Source: a virus. From it: a stretch of 64,000 nucleotides of DNA. The stretch lies in the IMG/VR virus record IMGVR_UViG_3300005253_000054, positions 1-64,000 of that record; one strand, 5' to 3'. The notes under the pieces are model-generated. The model was not told the DNA's origin, made no database searches, and worked only from the letters and a program-made list of their open reading frames with translations. A program made the translations under genes and the position numbers. Shown piece after piece: positions 45,345-52,421 of the stretch. Numbering within the stretch: position 1 is the stretch's first letter; each line of letters begins with the position of its first letter.

Positions 45345-45715
45345 TTTGGCCATCAGGAATAGAATGTGATAGTAACGAAATTGAGTTGTGGTATGATGAT
45401 CTTGACGAGGATGTTATGGGCAAAATCAATAGGTGTCTAAAAGAAAAGGGTTTTCAGTTTGTGGATGATGGCTTAATACACGATGGGTATTCTGCCTATC
45501 GTTTGGAGAAGTTGTGATATGAAAGTTGGGAAAGAAGTTAGTGTGACTCCAGTATGTCAAGGGTGGTGTAGTGTGTTTGCTACAAATTTAGTTCCATTAA
45601 CGGTATCAATACTTGGTAAAACGAAATTAGAAGAAAAATCACAAGTGGAATTTGCTAAAGAAGTTTATGAATGTTATCGACAGAAACAAGCCAAGGAACG
45701 TGGAGAATTAGAAGA

Positions 45716-48700
45716 TTGAATTATCAAACATTCCTCAAAACGAAACGACTACGAACCGATCCTAAAGGATTCGATCCGATATGGTTACCAGATTGGTTAT
45801 TCGGATTCCAAAACCATTTGTGTGATTGGTCGATTCGTTTGGGCAGGTCTGCTTTATACGAGGACTGTGGGCTTGGCAAAGGCAGTCCTCCCAATATGCC
45901 TGTTTTAACTCCCACTGGATTTGTCCCAATAGGCAGTTTGGAAATTGGTGATTCTGTTATAGCTTCTGATGGAAAATCCTATGATGTAAAGGGGGTTTAC
46001 TTCAAACCGAGGCAGGATGTTTTCAGATTATGGTTTAGTGATGGTGTTTCGTTAGTAGTGGATTCTGACCATTTGCATATATGCCGAACAAATAATGACA
46101 GACAAAGAGATAAGCCCTGGCGTGTTTTGAGTACCAAGGAATTGTTGGAATGTAATAATTTGAGATATGGTAGTGATGGGAAGTCTCGTAATTACGATAT
46201 TCCCGTTGTTGGTCCAGTGGAGTTTTCAGTGGATTGCCCCAAAACATTGACACCATATATTATCGGAGCCTTGTTGGGAGACGGTTGTACTTCTCAACCA
46301 AGTATGATTCAATTCACATCTGCGGATTCTGAGATTGTCAACAGGATCAATAATGAATTGTTGGGTGGTGTTGAATTAGTTTATAAAGATCGTTATGAAT
46401 ACCGGTTAAAAACTGGTAAGACTGGTTGTGTGAAACATCCTATTCGTGCTTTTTTGTATCGGATTGGGATGATGGGGAAATTGTCGTATCAAAAAAGTAT
46501 TCCAAAAGAATACCTTATGTCGAAACGAATAGAGGATAGGTTGGATTTGCTTCGTGGTTTGATGGACACGGATGGGTACATAATGAAGTGTGGTACTTCT
46601 CAGTTCTATTCTGTTAGTAGAAAGCTTGCGACAGACGTGGAGTTTTTGGTCAGAAGTCTTGGGGGTGTTCCCACTTTTTCTAGGAAGCAAACCAGTTTGA
46701 ATGGAGAACGAAAGAGGGATTGTTATACTGTTACATTTTCATTAAAGACCTTCAATCCTTTCTTTCTGTCGAGAAAAGCAGAAAGATGGAATCCCGATCC
46801 TAGGGACAATGGTAGGTGGATTGATTCCATTGACTATGAGGGACAATCTGAGACAGTGTGTATTTCTGTTGATTCTCCTGATTCTAGTTATGTCACTAGG
46901 AGTTTCATTGTTACACACAATACTCCCCAGCAATTAGTATGGGCTGAGAATGTGGTTAGACACACAAACAAACCCGTTTTGATTGTGGCACCTTTGGCTG
47001 TATCCGCTCAGTTTGTTACAGAGGCAGAGAAGTTTGGGGTAGGGATACATCGTAGCCGTGATGGTAGATTGAAAAAGGGAATCAATGTTACGAATTACGA
47101 GCGATTACATCATTTTGATCCGAAGAGATTAGCTGGAATATCCTGCGACGAGTGTTTCCCTCCGGGAACGGCAATAGATGTTGTGAACCCCCTTGACAAT
47201 TCTTTAGAAAAGAAGTATATTGAAGATATTGCACGGGGTGACCAAATTCTCAATGCTTCTGGAGTAGATCATGTCAAACATATATGGAAGAGAAAAATCA
47301 ACGGGGCGGTTCAAGTCGGCACCGAAGGATCTAAAATTACCTGTAGCGAAAATCATCCATTCTTTACCTTGCATGGTTGGAAATTCGCACGAGATTTACG
47401 AGCCGGAGATTGTGTCATGGAGACAGCCTCGGCAATGTACTTGGTGCGGGGAGATTTTCAATCCGAAATATGTAGCGAACAAGATGGCGAGATTTTGCGG
47501 AACATCTTGCTCAGCGAAATGGCGGATGAATACACCGGAACACAAAGCAAAAGTACACAATCCAACTGTTGCCAAAAAAAGAGGAAAATCGAAAGCATTA
47601 TGGTTCAGAGGAGGATCAGCAACAGCCAAAAAAGAACTCAAGCGGATAGCCGAGTTGTGTCCGATGAAAGATCCGAAAGTGAGAGCGAAGGTGTCCAAAC
47701 GATTGAAAGAGATAGGACACAAGCCGAGGATTCAGGGAGGGAATGGGAGACCTTTGACGGAGCCGCAACAGATGCTATTAGATTTGTTGGGTGGGGAGTG
47801 GGTTGCAGAATATCCAATTACCCTTGGGAAAAAGATACCCGGATATCCAACGAATTACAAGGTAGATATAGGTTGCCAATTACGAAAAACAGCAATCGAG
47901 TTGGATGGGCATTCTCATTATTCCAGAAAAGAATTGGATCAGAAGAAAGACGAAATGCTGGCTTCGTTAGGGTGGACAGTGTTGAGGTTTTGGAATTGGG
48001 ACATCCTAGATTGGATAAATGGAGGGATGAAAAAGGAGACGTCTATTTCTATGATATTGAAGCAACACGACATCCATCTTTCAGTGTGAATGGTTTGTTA
48101 GTACACAATTCGTCTATCCTAAAAAACTTTGATGGAAAGATGCGAAGAAGAATTACAGATTTTGTATCATCTATCAATTATCGTCTCCTATGCACGGCCA
48201 CCCCAGCACCAAATGACCACATGGAATTGGGAACATCCTCCGAAGCATTGGGTGTAATGAGCCGTGGTCAGATGCTAGGAATGTTTTTCGTTAATGGTGG
48301 GGAAACAACGCAACAATGGTTGCTAAAAGGTCACGCGAAGAAACGATTCTGGCAATGGATGGGAACGTGGGCCAGGGCTATTCGTATGCCATCTGATCTT
48401 GGTTTTGATGACGGGGATTTTATTTTACCAGAGTTGATAATGAAACAGCATCTTGTACCTAGTGAGGTTACGGATGGATTCTTTCCTACTATGGCTGTTA
48501 CGTTGGATGAGCAGAGGGCAGAACGAAAACGGACGATGCAGGCTAGGTGCGAAAAAGTGGCTGAGATTGTTCCTAATGATAGGCCATTTGTTGCTTGGTG
48601 TCATCTGAATCCAGAATCAGATTTGCTGGAGAAGTTGATTCCTGATGCCGTTCAAGTTAGTGGTAGTATGAAAGATGAGGTGAAAGAGGAGCGATTGAAA

Positions 48701-49042
48701 GCGTTTGCTGATGGGCAGATAAGGGTACTGGTTACTAAACCAAAAATTGCTTCATTCGGTCTTAATTGGCAGCACTGTGCTGATATGTCATTCTTCCCGT
48801 CTCATAGTCATGAGCAATTTTATCAGTCTTTACGACGATGTTATCGGTTCCAACAAGAGAATTCAGTAACTTGTAATATCGTTACGAGTGAGGCTGAGAG
48901 TAGAGTTTTGGATAACATGATGCGGAAAGAGCGGCAGGCTGTGGAAATGTATGATGGGATCGTAAGAGAAATGGGTAGGGCTTTGGATGAATCGAATGGG
49001 CAAAAAGGAAACGAGGAAACGAGTATACCGTCATGGTTGTAA
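45716..49042 (+). CDS. SF2/SNF2-like helicase with two inteins
   Basis: Spliced exteins give CGLGK|T, CDE|SS, TATPAPND, FGLNWQH, RCYRF; probable TTG start at 45716. Confidence 0.9.
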   Translation: MNYQTFLKTKRLRTDPKGFDPIWLPDWLFGFQNHLCDWSIRLGRSALYEDCGLGKGSPPNMPVLTPTGFVPIGSLEIGDSVIASDGKSYDVKGVYFKPRQDVFRLWFSDGVSLVVDSDHLHICRTNNDRQRDKPWRVLSTKELLECNNLRYGSDGKSRNYDIPVVGPVEFSVDCPKTLTPYIIGALLGDGCTSQPSMIQFTSADSEIVNRINNELLGGVELVYKDRYEYRLKTGKTGCVKHPIRAFLYRIGMMGKLSYQKSIPKEYLMSKRIEDRLDLLRGLMDTDGYIMKCGTSQFYSVSRKLATDVEFLVRSLGGVPTFSRKQTSLNGERKRDCYTVTFSLKTFNPFFLSRKAERWNPDPRDNGRWIDSIDYEGQSETVCISVDSPDSSYVTRSFIVTHNTPQQLVWAENVVRHTNKPVLIVAPLAVSAQFVTEAEKFGVGIHRSRDGRLKKGINVTNYERLHHFDPKRLAGISCDECFPPGTAIDVVNPLDNSLEKKYIEDIARGDQILNASGVDHVKHIWKRKINGAVQVGTEGSKITCSENHPFFTLHGWKFARDLRAGDCVMETASAMYLVRGDFQSEICSEQDGEILRNILLSEMADEYTGTQSKSTQSNCCQKKRKIESIMVQRRISNSQKRTQADSRVVSDERSESESEGVQTIERDRTQAEDSGREWETFDGAATDAIRFVGWGVGCRISNYPWEKDTRISNELQGRYRLPITKNSNRVGWAFSLFQKRIGSEERRNAGFVRVDSVEVLELGHPRLDKWRDEKGDVYFYDIEATRHPSFSVNGLLVHNSSILKNFDGKMRRRITDFVSSINYRLLCTATPAPNDHMELGTSSEALGVMSRGQMLGMFFVNGGETTQQWLLKGHAKKRFWQWMGTWARAIRMPSDLGFDDGDFILPELIMKQHLVPSEVTDGFFPTMAVTLDEQRAERKRTMQARCEKVAEIVPNDRPFVAWCHLNPESDLLEKLIPDAVQVSGSMKDEVKEERLKAFADGQIRVLVTKPKIASFGLNWQHCADMSFFPSHSHEQFYQSLRRCYRFQQENSVTCNIVTSEAESRVLDNMMRKERQAVEMYDGIVREMGRALDESNGQKGNEETSIPSWL
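45881..46921 (+). mobile_element. intein 1 (347 aa, class 3-like, in-frame LAGLIDADG endonuclease)
   Basis: Starts GSPPNMPVLTP, ends VCISVDSPDSSYVTRSFIVTHN|T; GALLGDG and RGLMDTDG. Confidence 0.88.
47193..47221 (+). promoter_or_regulatory. promoter inside intein 2 for the nested endonuclease
   Basis: TTGACA-17 bp-TATATT; GGAG at 47261-47264, ATG at 47271. Confidence 0.7.
47271..48089 (+). CDS. DUF559/Vsr-like endonuclease with Zn-ribbon, nested in the +1 frame of intein 2
   Basis: CTWCG..FCGTSC; TEPQ, EY, YKVDI, AIELDGHSH, DQKKDEMLASLGWTVLRFWN. Confidence 0.85.
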   Translation: MSNIYGREKSTGRFKSAPKDLKLPVAKIIHSLPCMVGNSHEIYEPEIVSWRQPRQCTWCGEIFNPKYVANKMARFCGTSCSAKWRMNTPEHKAKVHNPTVAKKRGKSKALWFRGGSATAKKELKRIAELCPMKDPKVRAKVSKRLKEIGHKPRIQGGNGRPLTEPQQMLLDLLGGEWVAEYPITLGKKIPGYPTNYKVDIGCQLRKTAIELDGHSHYSRKELDQKKDEMLASLGWTVLRFWNWDILDWINGGMKKETSISMILKQHDIHLSV

Positions 49043-50320: not shown

Positions 50321-50573
50321 ATTGTAAGGAGAATGATACGAAATGAGCACCATAAAAATAGATGATGATGGTTATGCGAAAGTCACGACTGGTAATCTTA
50401 CGGCTAGATTCGGTTGGGATGGTCATCCAAATGGTGCTAGGGGAATCGAACGTGCTTGTGAGCAGATAGCTAAGCTACAGAATATAATACTTGAACAACG
50501 CAAAATCCTCGACAAGTTGCCGAAGGATGCTGAAGGAAACGTGTACCCGCCGCCAAGCTCCTAACCGAAAGGA

Positions 50574-52421
50574 TTGACGATGCCCCCAGAACTCTATCGT
50601 AAATACCGACCTACCAAATTCTCAGAGGTATTAGGTCAACCTGAAGCAATCAAGACCCTAAACGATTGGGGCAAGCAAAAAGCGATACCCCACTTCCTGC
50701 TATTCACAGGCCCTAGTGGGTGTTTGCGTGGGGATACGAAGATATTTGATCCGGTGGATTCTAGTGATTTGTCTATTCGGGAGCGTTGGAGGATTGGTCA
50801 TCCTTTCCATGTTTTGTCGAGGAACGAGGATAACAGGCTGGTAGTGGCGGAAGCGATGCCACCGGTCCGCCATTCTCCAGATTGGATGTATCGTGTAAAA
50901 ACTTCTGAATCGCTTTTTTACGTAACGTCCGAACACCAGTTCCTCGTTGACACTGGTGAGTACCTTTCATTGAGGGAACTTTACGCTCGGAGATTCGACG
51001 GAGTCCATCTTCTGACCACTTGGGACATTTCCCAAGCAATTCAACACCAAGATGCTCACCATTGTTTGCAAACAAGATTAGATTATTCGGATCGTTATCG
51101 GTCTTATCCCCGTTTTTATGATGAACGACTTCCGATTCAGTCAGATATCGATTCAAAATACGCTCAAGCACCAAACGATGTTCTAGGACGTAACCGTTTC
51201 TCGCATTTGGATGTTTTGGCATCCGTATCAAAACATAACCATCCCCGTCAATTACACGACCACCTTTCCAGGCAGGATTATCGACACCACGTTGGAAAGA
51301 ATACTGTGGACGAATTTGGGTGTTTGAACGTTTCAACGATTCACGAACGTTTTGACGTTTTGTCTTCAGACGTTTTGCGATTTGTTTCTGAGTCCAACCG
51401 TCTTGATACATGCCCGAAACTAACTTGTCCCGTTCTGGAGTCCAAATACGACGCCTGTGTGGATAGAAGCCTTTTGGCATTGTCTTCTCCTTGTTTTGAT
51501 AGGACCATATTCTCTAGTACCATTATACAAGATATCTCCCAAACAAGCAAGCAGCCCTACTATGATTTTCATGTTCCTATTTACGAGAATTATTGGGCTG
51601 GTGGTTTGATTCATCATAATTGTGGCAAAACGACTTTAGCCCGAATTCTTCGGAAGAAACTCAAGTGTTCCGACCACGATTTTATAGAGGTGAATGCCGC
51701 CGAGACAAACGGGATTGATATGGTGCGGTCTATCGCGAGGGTAATGGGCCTTGCACCGATGATGGGCAGGTGTAGGGTGTGGCTCATAGATGAGGCTGCT
51801 AGGCTCACTAAGGATGCTCAGAGTGCTTTCCTCAAGATGCTGGAGGATACGCCCGAACACGTCTATTTTATGCTGGCGACAACTGATCCTCAGAAGTTAC
51901 TACCCACGATTATGACAAGGGCATCTGAGATTAAGGTAAAGGCTTTATCTTCTAAGGATATGACGGATTTGGTTAGAGGCGTACGTCATCAAGAGGAGCA
52001 AGCCAATTCTGAAGAGGATTTGGTTGGAATATCCGATGACGTTTGTGATAAAATTATTGACATAGCAGACGGATCGGCAAGGAAAGCATTGGTCCTATTG
52101 CATCAAGTGATTGGTGAAGGGGACGAGGAGAAGCAGTTAGCGGTCTTGCAACAGGCAGATAGCAAGCAACAGGCAATTGAGATTTGCCGATTGCTAATGA
52201 AAGCGAATACATCGTGGAAGCAGATGGCTAAGCTGCTTAGAGCCGTTGACGACGAGCCGGAGGGTATCAGGCGGCTGATGTTGGCTTATATGACCAAGGT
52301 AGGGCTGAGTGGTAATAAGAGGGCCATCGTGTGTCTTGAGGCGTTTGAGGAGCCTTATTTCAATACTGGCAGGGCAGGATTGGTTTTGTCCTGTTGGAAT
52401 GTAATCAATGGAGGTGGATGA
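50574..52421 (+). CDS. DnaX-like clamp loader ATPase with intein
   Basis: LYRKYRP..F.EVLGQ, GPSG|CGKTT, LIDEA, FLKMLED. Confidence 0.9.
   Translation: MTMPPELYRKYRPTKFSEVLGQPEAIKTLNDWGKQKAIPHFLLFTGPSGCLRGDTKIFDPVDSSDLSIRERWRIGHPFHVLSRNEDNRLVVAEAMPPVRHSPDWMYRVKTSESLFYVTSEHQFLVDTGEYLSLRELYARRFDGVHLLTTWDISQAIQHQDAHHCLQTRLDYSDRYRSYPRFYDERLPIQSDIDSKYAQAPNDVLGRNRFSHLDVLASVSKHNHPRQLHDHLSRQDYRHHVGKNTVDEFGCLNVSTIHERFDVLSSDVLRFVSESNRLDTCPKLTCPVLESKYDACVDRSLLALSSPCFDRTIFSSTIIQDISQTSKQPYYDFHVPIYENYWAGGLIHHNCGKTTLARILRKKLKCSDHDFIEVNAAETNGIDMVRSIARVMGLAPMMGRCRVWLIDEAARLTKDAQSAFLKMLEDTPEHVYFMLATTDPQKLLPTIMTRASEIKVKALSSKDMTDLVRGVRHQEEQANSEEDLVGISDDVCDKIIDIADGSARKALVLLHQVIGEGDEEKQLAVLQQADSKQQAIEICRLLMKANTSWKQMAKLLRAVDDEPEGIRRLMLAYMTKVGLSGNKRAIVCLEAFEEPYFNTGRAGLVLSCWNVINGGG
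50773..51480 (-). CDS. HTH-HNH homing endonuclease encoded antisense within intein 3
   Basis: GWTQKQIAKRL; NPAWKGG; GYVLEHRLV; VVHHKNGDKTDNDPNNL; SD AAGGAG. Confidence 0.9.
   Translation of the reverse strand: MPKGFYPHRRRIWTPERDKLVSGMYQDGWTQKQIAKRLKTKRQNVRESLKRSNTQIRPQYSFQRGVDNPAWKGGRVIDGDGYVLIRMPKHPNARNGYVLEHRLVLERILNRYLTESEVVHHKNGDKTDNDPNNLILFANNGEHLGVELLGKCPKWSEDGLRRISERKVPSMKGTHQCQRGTGVRTLRKKAIQKFLHDTSNLENGGPVASLPPLPACYPRSSTKHGKDDQSSNAPE
51522..51550 (-). promoter_or_regulatory. antisense promoter inside intein 3
   Basis: Minus strand TTGCTT-17 bp-TATAAT, 41 nt upstream of the HNH ATG. Confidence 0.75.

What the first reader, a model, noticed from the sequence alone, without database searches (positions are those of the whole stretch)
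50721..51620. Intein whose homing endonuclease is a separate antisense gene with its own promoter
Seen: the clamp-loader intein has intact splicing blocks (CLRGDT, TSEH, YYDF..HHN|C) but its in-frame middle resembles no domain. The opposite strand of the same DNA encodes a 235 aa HTH-HNH endonuclease (51480->50773). That gene has SD AAGGAG 6 nt before ATG and a TTGCTT-17-TATAAT promoter (51550-51522) lying in the intein's C-terminal coding region. Both strands stay open over ~700 bp, and this is the only convincing minus-strand gene in the window. Known: canonical inteins carry the endonuclease in frame between blocks B and F. Inference: a dual-coding mobile element in which protein splicing discards the junk translation of an independently expressed nuclease, uncoupling nuclease timing from the host gene and producing antisense RNA against the clamp loader.
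Basis: partly seen in the sequence, partly recalled or inferred. Interest (0 to 1): 0.93.

Follow-up and report, generated by a model that had tools for sequence, protein, structure and literature searches.

The report
Clamp-loader intein with antisense HNH gene
A self-splicing protein insert (intein) in a marine-sediment phage's DNA clamp-loader gene carries its DNA-cutting "homing" enzyme as a separate gene on the opposite strand; this layout was known for two other nuclease types, and here the undescribed HNH version turns out to be common in environmental phages.

Summary
The clamp-loader ORF (50574-52421, +) has a 300-aa class-1 intein (50721-51620) in its P-loop (GPSG|C…HHN|CGKT). A 235-aa HTH-HNH gene (51480-50773) lies antisense inside it.

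Comparative evidence shows that both strands are real:
- All 13 long-intein clamp-loader loci have the same layout, as do 60 of the 80 closest metagenome HNH relatives, always in one relative frame and with no stops.
- Synonymous shuffling of the HNH codons leaves the intein frame open in under 0.1% of trials.
- Across 10 diverged loci, wobble-type variation follows the HNH frame over the intein's middle. It flips to the intein frame over the Hint N-lobe.
- AlphaFold models the intein as two confident Hint lobes joined by about 150 disordered residues.
- A Shine-Dalgarno site and a TTGnCn-17/18-TATAAT-like element precede the HNH start in 9-10 of 10 loci.

The layout is not new in kind. Antisense LAGLIDADG and VSR-like nucleases in inteins are published (Gorbalenya 1998; Gosselin et al. 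2025 preprint). I found no report of an antisense HNH.

This scan has already noted antisense-HNH inteins on other DNA, mostly in terminases. Expression, splicing and cleavage remain untested.

The parts
50574..52421 (+). Clamp-loader (AAA+, DNA_pol3_delta2-type) gene interrupted by the intein. The listed start is TTG at 50574; an ATG at 50580 behind AAAGGA may be the real start.
50721..51620 (+). Class-1 intein, 300 aa, inserted in the Walker A P-loop (GPSG|C...HHN|CGKT)
   Evidence: Invariant in 13-14 relatives: Cys1, block-B His72, Asp282/Phe283/Val285, His299-Asn300 and Cys+1; block-B Thr69 is nearly invariant. The Hint fold matches solved mini-inteins at probability 1.0. Intein-less alleles carry GPSG|CGKTT.
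50721..51029 (+). Hint N-lobe (intein residues 1-103), confidently folded
   Evidence: pLDDT 73-92. Intein-frame wobble is the most variable position below about 50990.
51030..51488 (+). Intein linker (residues 104-256). It is the stop-free but unselected antisense translation of the HNH gene and is predicted disordered.
   Evidence: pLDDT about 30 and almost no secondary structure, one short helix. No Pfam domain. Its second codon positions are the most variable. Unconserved in A1 and A2.
51489..51620 (+). Hint C-lobe (blocks F and G). It also carries the HNH gene's SD and promoter-like element on the other strand.
50773..51480 (-). HTH-HNH (HNH_3 family) endonuclease gene, 235 aa plus stop
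   Evidence: Pfam and PHROG hits. The start MPKG(F/I/V)Y and the HNH residues H121, N129, N133, N140, H143 are invariant. HNH-frame wobble pattern from 51480 to about 50995. AF2 pLDDT 80-97 for residues 10-165.
50776..50985 (-). C-terminal tail of the HNH ORF (residues ~166-235). It is a read-through across the antisense of the Hint N-lobe and is probably not part of the nuclease.
   Evidence: Homology to free-standing HNHs and to HNHs in other inteins ends near residue 165. pLDDT 45-64. Variation follows the intein frame here.
50955..51065 (.). Zone where conserved residues of both proteins share the same bases: Hint GEYLSLKEL...LLS against HNH HLGVELLGKCPKW..G. Divergence is lowest at all three codon positions here.
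51487..51492 (-). Shine-Dalgarno AAGGAG, 6 nt before the HNH ATG
   Evidence: A GGAG-containing SD sits a few nt upstream of the ATG in all 10 clamp-loader loci.
51522..51550 (-). Sigma-70-like promoter candidate TTGCTT-17-TATAAT inside the Hint C-lobe coding sequence
   Evidence: TTGnCn-17/18-TAT(A/T)(A/C/T)T at the same place in 9-10 of 10 loci. The invariant Ile318 uses ATA in 10 of 10, against an ATA share of 0.05-0.42 among extein Ile codons. Summed promoter score 85 against a null of 76.9 +/- 3.7, P about 0.01. Not called by the consensus scanner.

Best explanation
This is a mobile intein whose homing endonuclease is a separate gene on the opposite strand.

The phage clamp-loader gene is translated as a 615-aa precursor. 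The intein's two Hint lobes (residues 1-103 and 257-300) are joined by about 150 residues that are merely the antisense reading of the nuclease gene. That stretch is kept free of stop codons because a stop would truncate an essential replication protein. Its amino-acid sequence is otherwise unselected, and it is discarded when the intein splices and restores the P-loop GPSGCGKT.

The HTH-HNH nuclease is made from its own start codon, Shine-Dalgarno site and promoter-like element, all embedded in the coding sequence of the Hint C-lobe. It most likely nicks or cuts intein-less clamp-loader alleles of co-infecting relatives near the P-loop codons. Recombinational repair would then copy the whole intein-plus-nuclease unit.

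Shown here: the architecture, purifying selection on each strand in its own zone, stop avoidance, unit-like co-divergence, and recurrence in many P-loop NTPase genes. Inferred: transcription of the minus strand, protein splicing, and the nuclease's target.
For: (1) Recurrence. The antisense HNH is present full-length (48-59% identity) in all 13 long-intein clamp-loader loci from IMG/VR. It always lies wholly inside the + ORF and in the same relative frame. The same holds in related P-loop inteins of terminases, TraG-like proteins, Sno-like helicases and other helicases. Of the 80 best metagenome relatives of the HNH, 60 are embedded in this way with no stops.

(2) Stop avoidance. All 21 embedded loci tested have 0 stops in that antisense frame, against 1-19 in the other two frames. 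Synonymous-codon shuffles give P(open) of 0.02 or less at every locus and 0.0003-0.0008 for the window. Free-standing relatives carry about 3.7 stops per 100 codons in that frame.

(3) Which strand is selected. From 51480 to about 50995 the most variable codon position is the HNH wobble (0.47-0.72) and the least variable is HNH position 2, which is the intein wobble. Below about 50990 the pattern flips to the intein frame.

(4) Structure. The intein model has two confident beta-rich lobes that match solved mini-inteins, and a 153-residue segment with pLDDT below 50. The HNH model is confident for residues 10-165.

(5) Expression signals. The SD and a -35/-10-like element are conserved, and the ATA codon is used in 10 of 10 loci.

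(6) Mobility. Flank GC ranges from 0.31 to 0.60 while intein GC stays at 0.37-0.45. Extein identity is uncorrelated with Hint or HNH identity (r = 0.10 and 0.07), whereas Hint and HNH identity correlate (r = 0.48). Empty GPSG|CGKTT alleles exist.

(7) Decay and split forms exist in the same family. Mini-inteins keep only an antisense HNH remnant (L098, L099, L101). One fractured gene has a split intein around an antisense HNH (L117).

(8) Phylogeny. 83 of 85 embedded HNHs fall in one clade. There are 9 state changes on the tree, against 42.6 expected with shuffled labels.

(9) Assembly. Logan contigs of the runs that hold this DNA span N-extein, intein and C-extein without differences, although two of them may be the source sample. 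Together with the diverged relatives, this rules out an assembly chimera.
Against: - There is no direct evidence of minus-strand transcription, of HNH protein, of splicing, or of cleavage.
- The -35 in the window matches only 3 of 6, and the consensus scanner did not call the site.
- The promoter-score test is only moderately significant (P about 0.01). The host, and so its promoter type, is unknown.
- The HNH model's best structural match, I-HmuI, is weak (E = 0.07).
- The pairwise-identity correlations use non-independent pairs.
- The loci were fetched by similarity to the window, so prevalence figures describe this clade and not inteins at large.
- The low GC of the intein could partly reflect dual-coding constraint rather than recent transfer.
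Confidence: 0.78

Rival explanations
1. There are two separate selfish elements. The HNH is a free-standing homing endonuclease gene that parasitises the intein as a safe harbour. Its target would be HNH-less (mini-)intein alleles or sequence inside the intein, not the empty P-loop site. The intein would gain no mobility from it.
For: - Mini-intein alleles of the same intein exist at the same site (P0006, P0009, P0010, P0012, L098, L099).
- The Dassa 2009 model (PMC2677866) and the Gosselin 2025 preprint both propose invasion of inteins by free-standing nuclease genes.
- A few free-standing members sit inside the embedded clade (L002, L174, L212 and others).
Against: - The mini-inteins examined still carry an antisense remnant of the HNH C-terminal part, so they look like deletion products rather than naive targets.
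- Hint and HNH divergence correlate, while neither tracks the extein.
- Related Hint-plus-HNH pairs occur together in many different P-loop genes. This is easier to explain if they move as one unit.
Confidence: 0.12
2. The HNH gene serves the phage rather than the intein, for example as a nuclease that degrades competitor or host DNA, or as a packaging-associated HNH. On this reading it merely sits in a tolerated spot.
For: - Phages encode many HNH proteins with non-homing roles (general knowledge; PMC3592412 abstract).
- The target of this HNH is unknown.
Against: - The clade is found almost only inside inteins of unrelated genes: 83 of 90 clade members and 60 of the 80 best metagenome relatives.
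- Its best, though weak, structural match is the homing nickase I-HmuI.
- A host-serving gene has no reason to accept the coding constraints of an antisense overlap.
Confidence: 0.06
3. The element is a relic. Either the HNH ORF is a decaying pseudogene that happens to be open, or the intein no longer splices.
For: - Decayed forms exist in the family (L101 and the mini-inteins).
- The Pfam Intein_splicing score of the window intein is below the gathering threshold.
Against: - The HNH frame shows a clear purifying-selection pattern, and its catalytic residues and start are invariant across 10-22 diverged loci.
- All splicing residues are invariant, and the insert sits in the Walker A loop of an essential ATPase.
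- A Hint fold is predicted.
Confidence: 0.04

Closest known systems
Non-canonical inteins with an antisense-encoded homing endonuclease. Antisense LAGLIDADG in the Synechocystis dnaX intein and a Chloroflexus intein (Gorbalenya 1998; Gogarten 2002, both as cited in bioRxiv 10.1101/2025.01.02.630785). Antisense LAGLIDADG and VSR-like nucleases in actinobacteriophage inteins (that preprint).
   Same: The intein is contiguous and its frame stays open across a nuclease gene on the opposite strand, placed between the splicing blocks. The proposed origin is invasion of an intein by a free-standing nuclease gene. The elements occur in phage replication and packaging genes.
   Different: The nuclease family here is HTH-HNH (HNH_3); that preprint lists HNH only as an in-frame domain. 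The hosts are uncultured environmental phages, and the targets are P-loops of clamp loaders, terminases and helicases. The preprint contains no promoter analysis (0 occurrences of 'promoter'). Here an embedded SD and promoter-like element, a codon-phase switch and a by-product tail are documented.
Fractured genes: split inteins with a free-standing GIY-YIG or Vsr-like endonuclease gene between the halves (Dassa et al. 2009, PMC2677866)
   Same: A free-standing-type homing endonuclease gene with its own expression signals sits at the intein's endonuclease insertion point in phage replication genes. Locus L117 of this family is a true fractured gene with N- and C-intein halves around the HNH.
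   Different: In fractured genes all three ORFs are on one strand and the host gene is broken into two. In the window the nuclease is antisense and the host ORF is unbroken, so splicing would be in cis.
[quoted passage not shown] 1997, as cited in the preprint). An example was seen here: the second intein of the L190 ORF, with Intein_splicing 8e-32 and in-frame HNH_3.
   Same: An HNH_3-type nuclease is associated with a Hint splicing domain at the same insertion point within the fold.
   Different: There the nuclease is part of the intein polypeptide and is translated with the host protein. Here it is a separate protein from the other strand.
I-HmuI, the HNH homing nickase of a Bacillus phage SPO1 group I intron (PDB 1u3e)
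   Same: It is the best structural match of the HNH model (Foldseek E = 0.068, probability 0.93). It has an HNH core plus a helix-turn-helix DNA-binding module and is a phage homing enzyme.
   Different: The match is weak. I-HmuI is intron-encoded on the sense strand and its domain order differs (HTH at the C-terminus, by established knowledge). Activity was not tested here.
ShiLan-type out-of-frame HNH insertions in phage methylase genes (Arsenault et al. 2025, PMC11855218)
   Same: An HNH homing-type gene is hidden in an alternate frame of an insertion that stays stop-free in the host gene's frame.
   Different: That insertion is on the same strand, has no intein splicing domain, and is thought to stay in the host protein as a loop.

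Membership tests
Intein (class 1 Hint protein-splicing element) | In-frame insertion in a conserved host motif, with intein-less homologues that are colinear across the site | tested here: met
   The insertion is in Walker A, GPSG|CGKT. Intein-less relatives L081, L082 and L084 read GPSG|CGKTT.
Intein (class 1 Hint protein-splicing element) | N-terminal Cys/Ser, block B TxxH, C-terminal His-Asn, and Cys/Ser/Thr at +1 | tested here: met
   Cys1, His72, His299, Asn300 and Cys+1 are invariant, and Thr69 is nearly invariant, in 13-14 relatives.
Intein (class 1 Hint protein-splicing element) | Hint fold | tested here: met
   The AF2 lobes (pLDDT 73-92) match RecA, DnaE and DnaB mini-inteins at probability 1.0, E about 1e-4. 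The Pfam Intein_splicing hit is below the gathering score in the window and above it in several relatives.
Intein (class 1 Hint protein-splicing element) | Autocatalytic protein splicing | not testable with these tools
   This needs expression of the precursor.
HNH endonuclease, HNH_3 (PF13392) | Profile match above the curated threshold | tested here: met
   26.4 bits against a cut-off of 24.8. PHROG HNH families score down to 1.1e-28.
HNH endonuclease, HNH_3 (PF13392) | Conserved His/Asn catalytic and metal-binding residues of the beta-beta-alpha-Me motif | tested here: met
   H121, N129, N133, N140 and H143 are invariant in 22 sequences. The model has strands at 118-121 and 134-137 and a helix at 140-148 with pLDDT above 90.
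Homing endonuclease (functional class) | Site-specific cleavage of the element-less allele that promotes copying of the element | not testable with these tools
   Only indirect signs are available: a compositional island, decoupled divergence, empty alleles, and patchy presence.
Non-canonical intein with antisense homing endonuclease (Gorbalenya 1998; Gosselin et al. 2025) | A nuclease ORF on the antisense strand between the splicing blocks of a contiguous intein whose own frame stays open | tested here: met
Non-canonical intein with antisense homing endonuclease (Gorbalenya 1998; Gosselin et al. 2025) | Nuclease of the LAGLIDADG or VSR-like family, the described members | tested here: not met
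   The nuclease here is HNH_3, so this is a new variant of that architecture.
Fractured gene / naturally split intein (Dassa et al. 2009) | Host gene broken into two ORFs, each carrying one intein half | tested here: not met
   The window ORF is continuous. The relative L117 does meet this feature.

The most novel reading that the evidence does not exclude
A whole clade of HTH-HNH nucleases may be specialised for life on the antisense strand of P-loop-targeting inteins. On this reading their convergent transcript is more than a by-product. Because it is fully complementary to the host gene's mRNA, it would couple or gate expression of the essential host gene (clamp loader, terminase) to the nuclease. 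That would give the selfish element a regulatory or addiction-like hold on phage replication timing.
Probability: 0.15. Interest if true: 0.8.

Novelty: new variant of a known kind. Interest (0 to 1): 0.6.

Why it matters
It extends a rare, recently re-described intein architecture (nuclease on the antisense strand) to the HNH family. It also shows that this version is abundant rather than a curiosity: one HNH clade lives almost only inside P-loop inteins of environmental phage genes.

The family displays, side by side, the stages proposed for how inteins gain and lose endonucleases and become split:
- mini-inteins that keep only a remnant of the nuclease gene;
- contiguous inteins with an antisense gene;
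- a fractured gene with a split intein;
- in-frame HNH inteins.

This makes the 'free-standing nuclease invades an intein' model testable with natural sequences.

Practically, these genes are mis-annotated as long clamp loaders or terminases with an unknown middle, and the nuclease gene is missed. The Hint lobes tolerate a 150-residue disordered tether, which is of interest for intein engineering. The HNH enzymes are candidates for new site-specific nickases.

Tried and rejected
DNA for the protein hits P0001-P0012 could not be fetched, so IMG/VR and metagenome loci were used instead.
- blastn of the gene against 50,697 phage records found no match.
- RNA evidence: no RNA holder is listed for this DNA, so strand-specific expression could not be examined.
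- Read laying showed only contigs. Run X4, from another study, covers only the intein ends and part of the C-extein, and nothing can be concluded from the uncovered middle.
A terminator-like hairpin on the minus strand at 50525-50507 is no more than chance.
- Foldseek of the HNH model against PDB gave no match at E of 0.001 or better.
- A profile search of PDB sequences hit only helical repeats with the N-terminal helices.
- Alignment A3 was too diverse to seed the metagenome scan. A4 was used instead.
- Ten literature searches found no description of an antisense HNH in an intein. The library does not hold most subscription papers, so absence is not proof. Gorbalenya 1998 was not read directly.
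- Rejected: assembly chimera, chance open frame, and an unknown in-frame domain in the linker. The reasons are given in the report.
- Complex prediction, the search of protein representatives and the protein-atlas search were not used, because no claim here depends on them.
Full report
**What is there**

The window is part of a complete 100,283-bp virus record with direct terminal repeats. The DNA is held by marine-sediment metagenome runs. Nearly all genes lie on the + strand.

ORF 50574..52421 (+, 615 aa) is a phage clamp loader: DNA_pol3_delta2 3e-18, PHROG 5846 5e-54. Its Walker A motif is interrupted after GPSG by 300 codons (50721-51620). These begin CLRGDT, contain TSEH and YYDFHV, and end HHN, followed by CGKT. 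The middle of this insert matches no Pfam family.

On the opposite strand, ORF 51480..50773 encodes 235 aa. It hits HNH_3 above Pfam's threshold and PHROG HNH families down to 1e-28, and it has weak helix-turn-helix hits at its N-terminus. AAGGAG lies 6 nt before its ATG, and TTGCTT-17-TATAAT lies at 51550-51522.

**Is the double open frame more than chance?**

Over the 235 HNH codons, the antisense frame used by the intein has 0 stops. The other two antisense frames have 9 and 12. I permuted synonymous codons within the HNH ORF, keeping its protein and its codon usage. The intein frame stayed open in only 0.03-0.08% of trials, with about 5 stops expected.

In this frame relation, a + strand stop arises when an HNH codon NTT, NCT or NTC is followed by a codon starting with A. 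Stops can therefore be avoided mostly by codon choice, and they are.

Free-standing relatives of the HNH carry about 3.7 stops per 100 codons in the same antisense frame.

**Relatives**

A protein search with the intein found eight clamp loaders of 606-620 aa with the same ~300-aa intein. It also found four of 459-489 aa with a mini-intein at the same site. In the alignment, the first ~115 and last ~35 intein residues are conserved and the middle is not.

IMG/VR scans gave 13 long-intein clamp-loader loci (L085-L097; L001 and L088 are the same contig). All contain a full-length antisense HNH at 48-59% identity, inside the + ORF and in the same relative frame.

Related Hint-plus-antisense-HNH pairs sit in the P-loops of other genes:
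- terminase large subunits;
- TraG/VirD4-like ATPases;
- Strawberry-notch-like helicases;
- other helicases.

The junctions there read C[LIV]xG[DE]T...HHN|[CST]GK[ST].

Of the 80 best metagenome relatives of the HNH (more than 571 exist), 60 are embedded in this way with no stops.

On a FastTree of 138 unique HNH proteins, 83 of 85 embedded ones fall in one clade of 90 (support 69). Embedded versus free status changes 9 times on the tree, against 42.6 expected with shuffled labels. Sampling was by similarity to the window, so these numbers describe this clade only.

**Which strand is under selection where**

I built a codon alignment of ten diverged clamp-loader loci and measured pairwise differences per codon position in sliding windows.
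- From 51480 down to about 50995, the most variable position is the HNH third position (0.47-0.72). The least variable is HNH position 2, which is the intein's third position. The minus-strand protein is therefore under purifying selection, and the intein's linker residues are not.
- Below about 50990 (intein residues under ~90), the variable position becomes the intein wobble. There the Hint N-lobe is the selected product.

Consistent with this, homology between this HNH and free-standing relatives or relatives in other inteins ends near residue 165. The last ~70 residues of the HNH ORF are a read-through across the antisense of the Hint N-lobe.

Around 50955-51065, conserved residues of both proteins share bases and divergence is lowest at all three positions. 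This zone is genuine dual coding.

**Structure**

AlphaFold with a 13-sequence alignment models intein residues 1-103 and 257-300 as beta-rich lobes (pLDDT 73-92). Residues 104-256 have pLDDT around 30 and almost no secondary structure (one short helix, 111-116). Foldseek matches the model to RecA, DnaE and DnaB mini-inteins at probability 1.0.

The HNH model is confident for residues 10-165: a three-helix bundle at 15-51, then a beta-beta-alpha HNH core. The tail is poor, with pLDDT 45-64. Its best PDB match is the homing nickase I-HmuI, but only weakly (E = 0.068).

**Expression signals**

In all ten clamp-loader loci the HNH ORF starts MPKG(F/I/V)Y and is preceded by a GGAG-containing SD a few nt upstream. 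About 38-50 nt upstream, nine or ten of them have TTGnCn-17/18-TAT(A/T)(A/C/T)T.

The TAT of the -10 element is the antisense of the codon for the invariant intein Ile318. That codon is ATA in 10 of 10 loci, although ATA makes up only 5-42% of Ile codons in the exteins.

A crude score test against synonymous resampling of the intein frame gives P of about 0.01. The generic scanner did not call the window's site, because its -35 matches 3 of 6. I read this as good but indirect evidence for an internal promoter. No RNA data exist for this DNA.

**Mobility**

Flanking GC ranges from 0.31 to 0.60 among the ten loci, while intein GC stays at 0.37-0.45.

Pairwise extein identity (mean 43%) does not correlate with Hint identity (r = 0.10) or HNH identity (r = 0.07). 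Hint and HNH identity do correlate (r = 0.48). This fits a unit that moves between phages, with the caveats of non-independent pairs and of dual-coding constraint on composition.

Empty target alleles reading GPSG|CGKTT exist in related phages. One relative has Asn at +1, which could not support splicing.

**Life-cycle stages in one family**
- L101 has a truncated antisense HNH in a 190-aa intein.
- L098 and L099 are mini-inteins that keep only the antisense remnant overlapping the Hint N-lobe.
- L117 is a fractured gene. An N-extein plus N-intein ORF ends in a stop, an antisense HNH follows, and a new ATG opens the C-intein plus C-extein of an AAA ATPase.
- The L190 ORF carries one intein with an antisense HNH and a second intein with an in-frame HNH_3.

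**Artefact check**

Logan contigs of the runs that hold this DNA span N-extein, intein and C-extein without differences; two of them may be the window's source sample. Many diverged relatives share the layout. A chimera is excluded.

**Comparison with the literature**

The architecture is not new in kind. [quoted passage not shown] It credits Gorbalenya 1998 and Gogarten 2002 with the first antisense LAGLIDADG case, in the Synechocystis dnaX intein.

That preprint lists HNH only as an in-frame domain and contains no promoter analysis.

Dassa et al. 2009 (PMC2677866) described same-strand free-standing nucleases that split inteins. Arsenault et al. 2025 (PMC11855218) described a same-strand out-of-frame HNH insertion without an intein.

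In ten full-text searches I found no paper describing an antisense HNH gene in an intein. The library lacks most subscription journals.

**Earlier notes of this scan**

Earlier notes of this scan report antisense-HNH inteins on other genomes, mostly in terminase P-loops and head genes. The scan has therefore seen this kind before.

**Verdict**

The core interpretation is supported by comparative evidence. The regulatory add-ons remain untested. Novelty is that of a new variant (HNH) of a known, rare architecture, shown here to be widespread in environmental phages.

Noticed in passing
window 47271-48089 (+), inside the second intein of the SNF2-type helicase ORF 45671-49042: A 272-aa ORF in the +1 frame of that intein hits DUF559 (Vsr-like nuclease fold, 2.8e-13). 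It is a same-strand, out-of-frame counterpart of the antisense case. The first intein of the same ORF has an in-frame LAGLIDADG_3 domain. This was already noted by other readers of this genome.
   Followed up: partly
L117:1-2010 (IMGVR_UViG_3300049489_001113): A fractured AAA-ATPase gene. The N-extein plus N-intein ORF stops at 663, an antisense HNH gene lies at 1162-467, and a new ATG at 1183 opens the C-intein plus C-extein. It is a natural split intein with the nuclease gene in the opposite orientation to the published fractured genes.
   Followed up: partly
L190:3-3500 (-): One ORF carries two inteins: one with an antisense HNH, and a second with an in-frame HNH_3 domain (Intein_splicing 8e-32, HNH_3 2.7e-9).
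   Followed up: no
P0005 (991-aa clamp loader, alignment A1 columns ~455-835): This relative has a second intein after the Walker B motif. Its in-frame middle also looks like unconserved junk, so it may hide another off-frame or antisense nuclease gene.
   Followed up: no
L016 and L019 (terminase genes): A different intein family, at a non-P-loop site of the terminase (C..T.I.MADG...N|CF), also holds an antisense HNH with no stops in the same relative frame.
   Followed up: partly
L083:~3132: An intein-less clamp-loader relative has Asn instead of Cys at the +1 position (GSSG|NGKTT). That allele could not support splicing if invaded, so it may be resistant.
   Followed up: no
window 50507-50525 (-): A terminator-like hairpin lies on the minus strand about 250 nt downstream of the HNH stop, inside the small + strand gene 50343-50564. 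It is no more than expected by chance.
   Followed up: no
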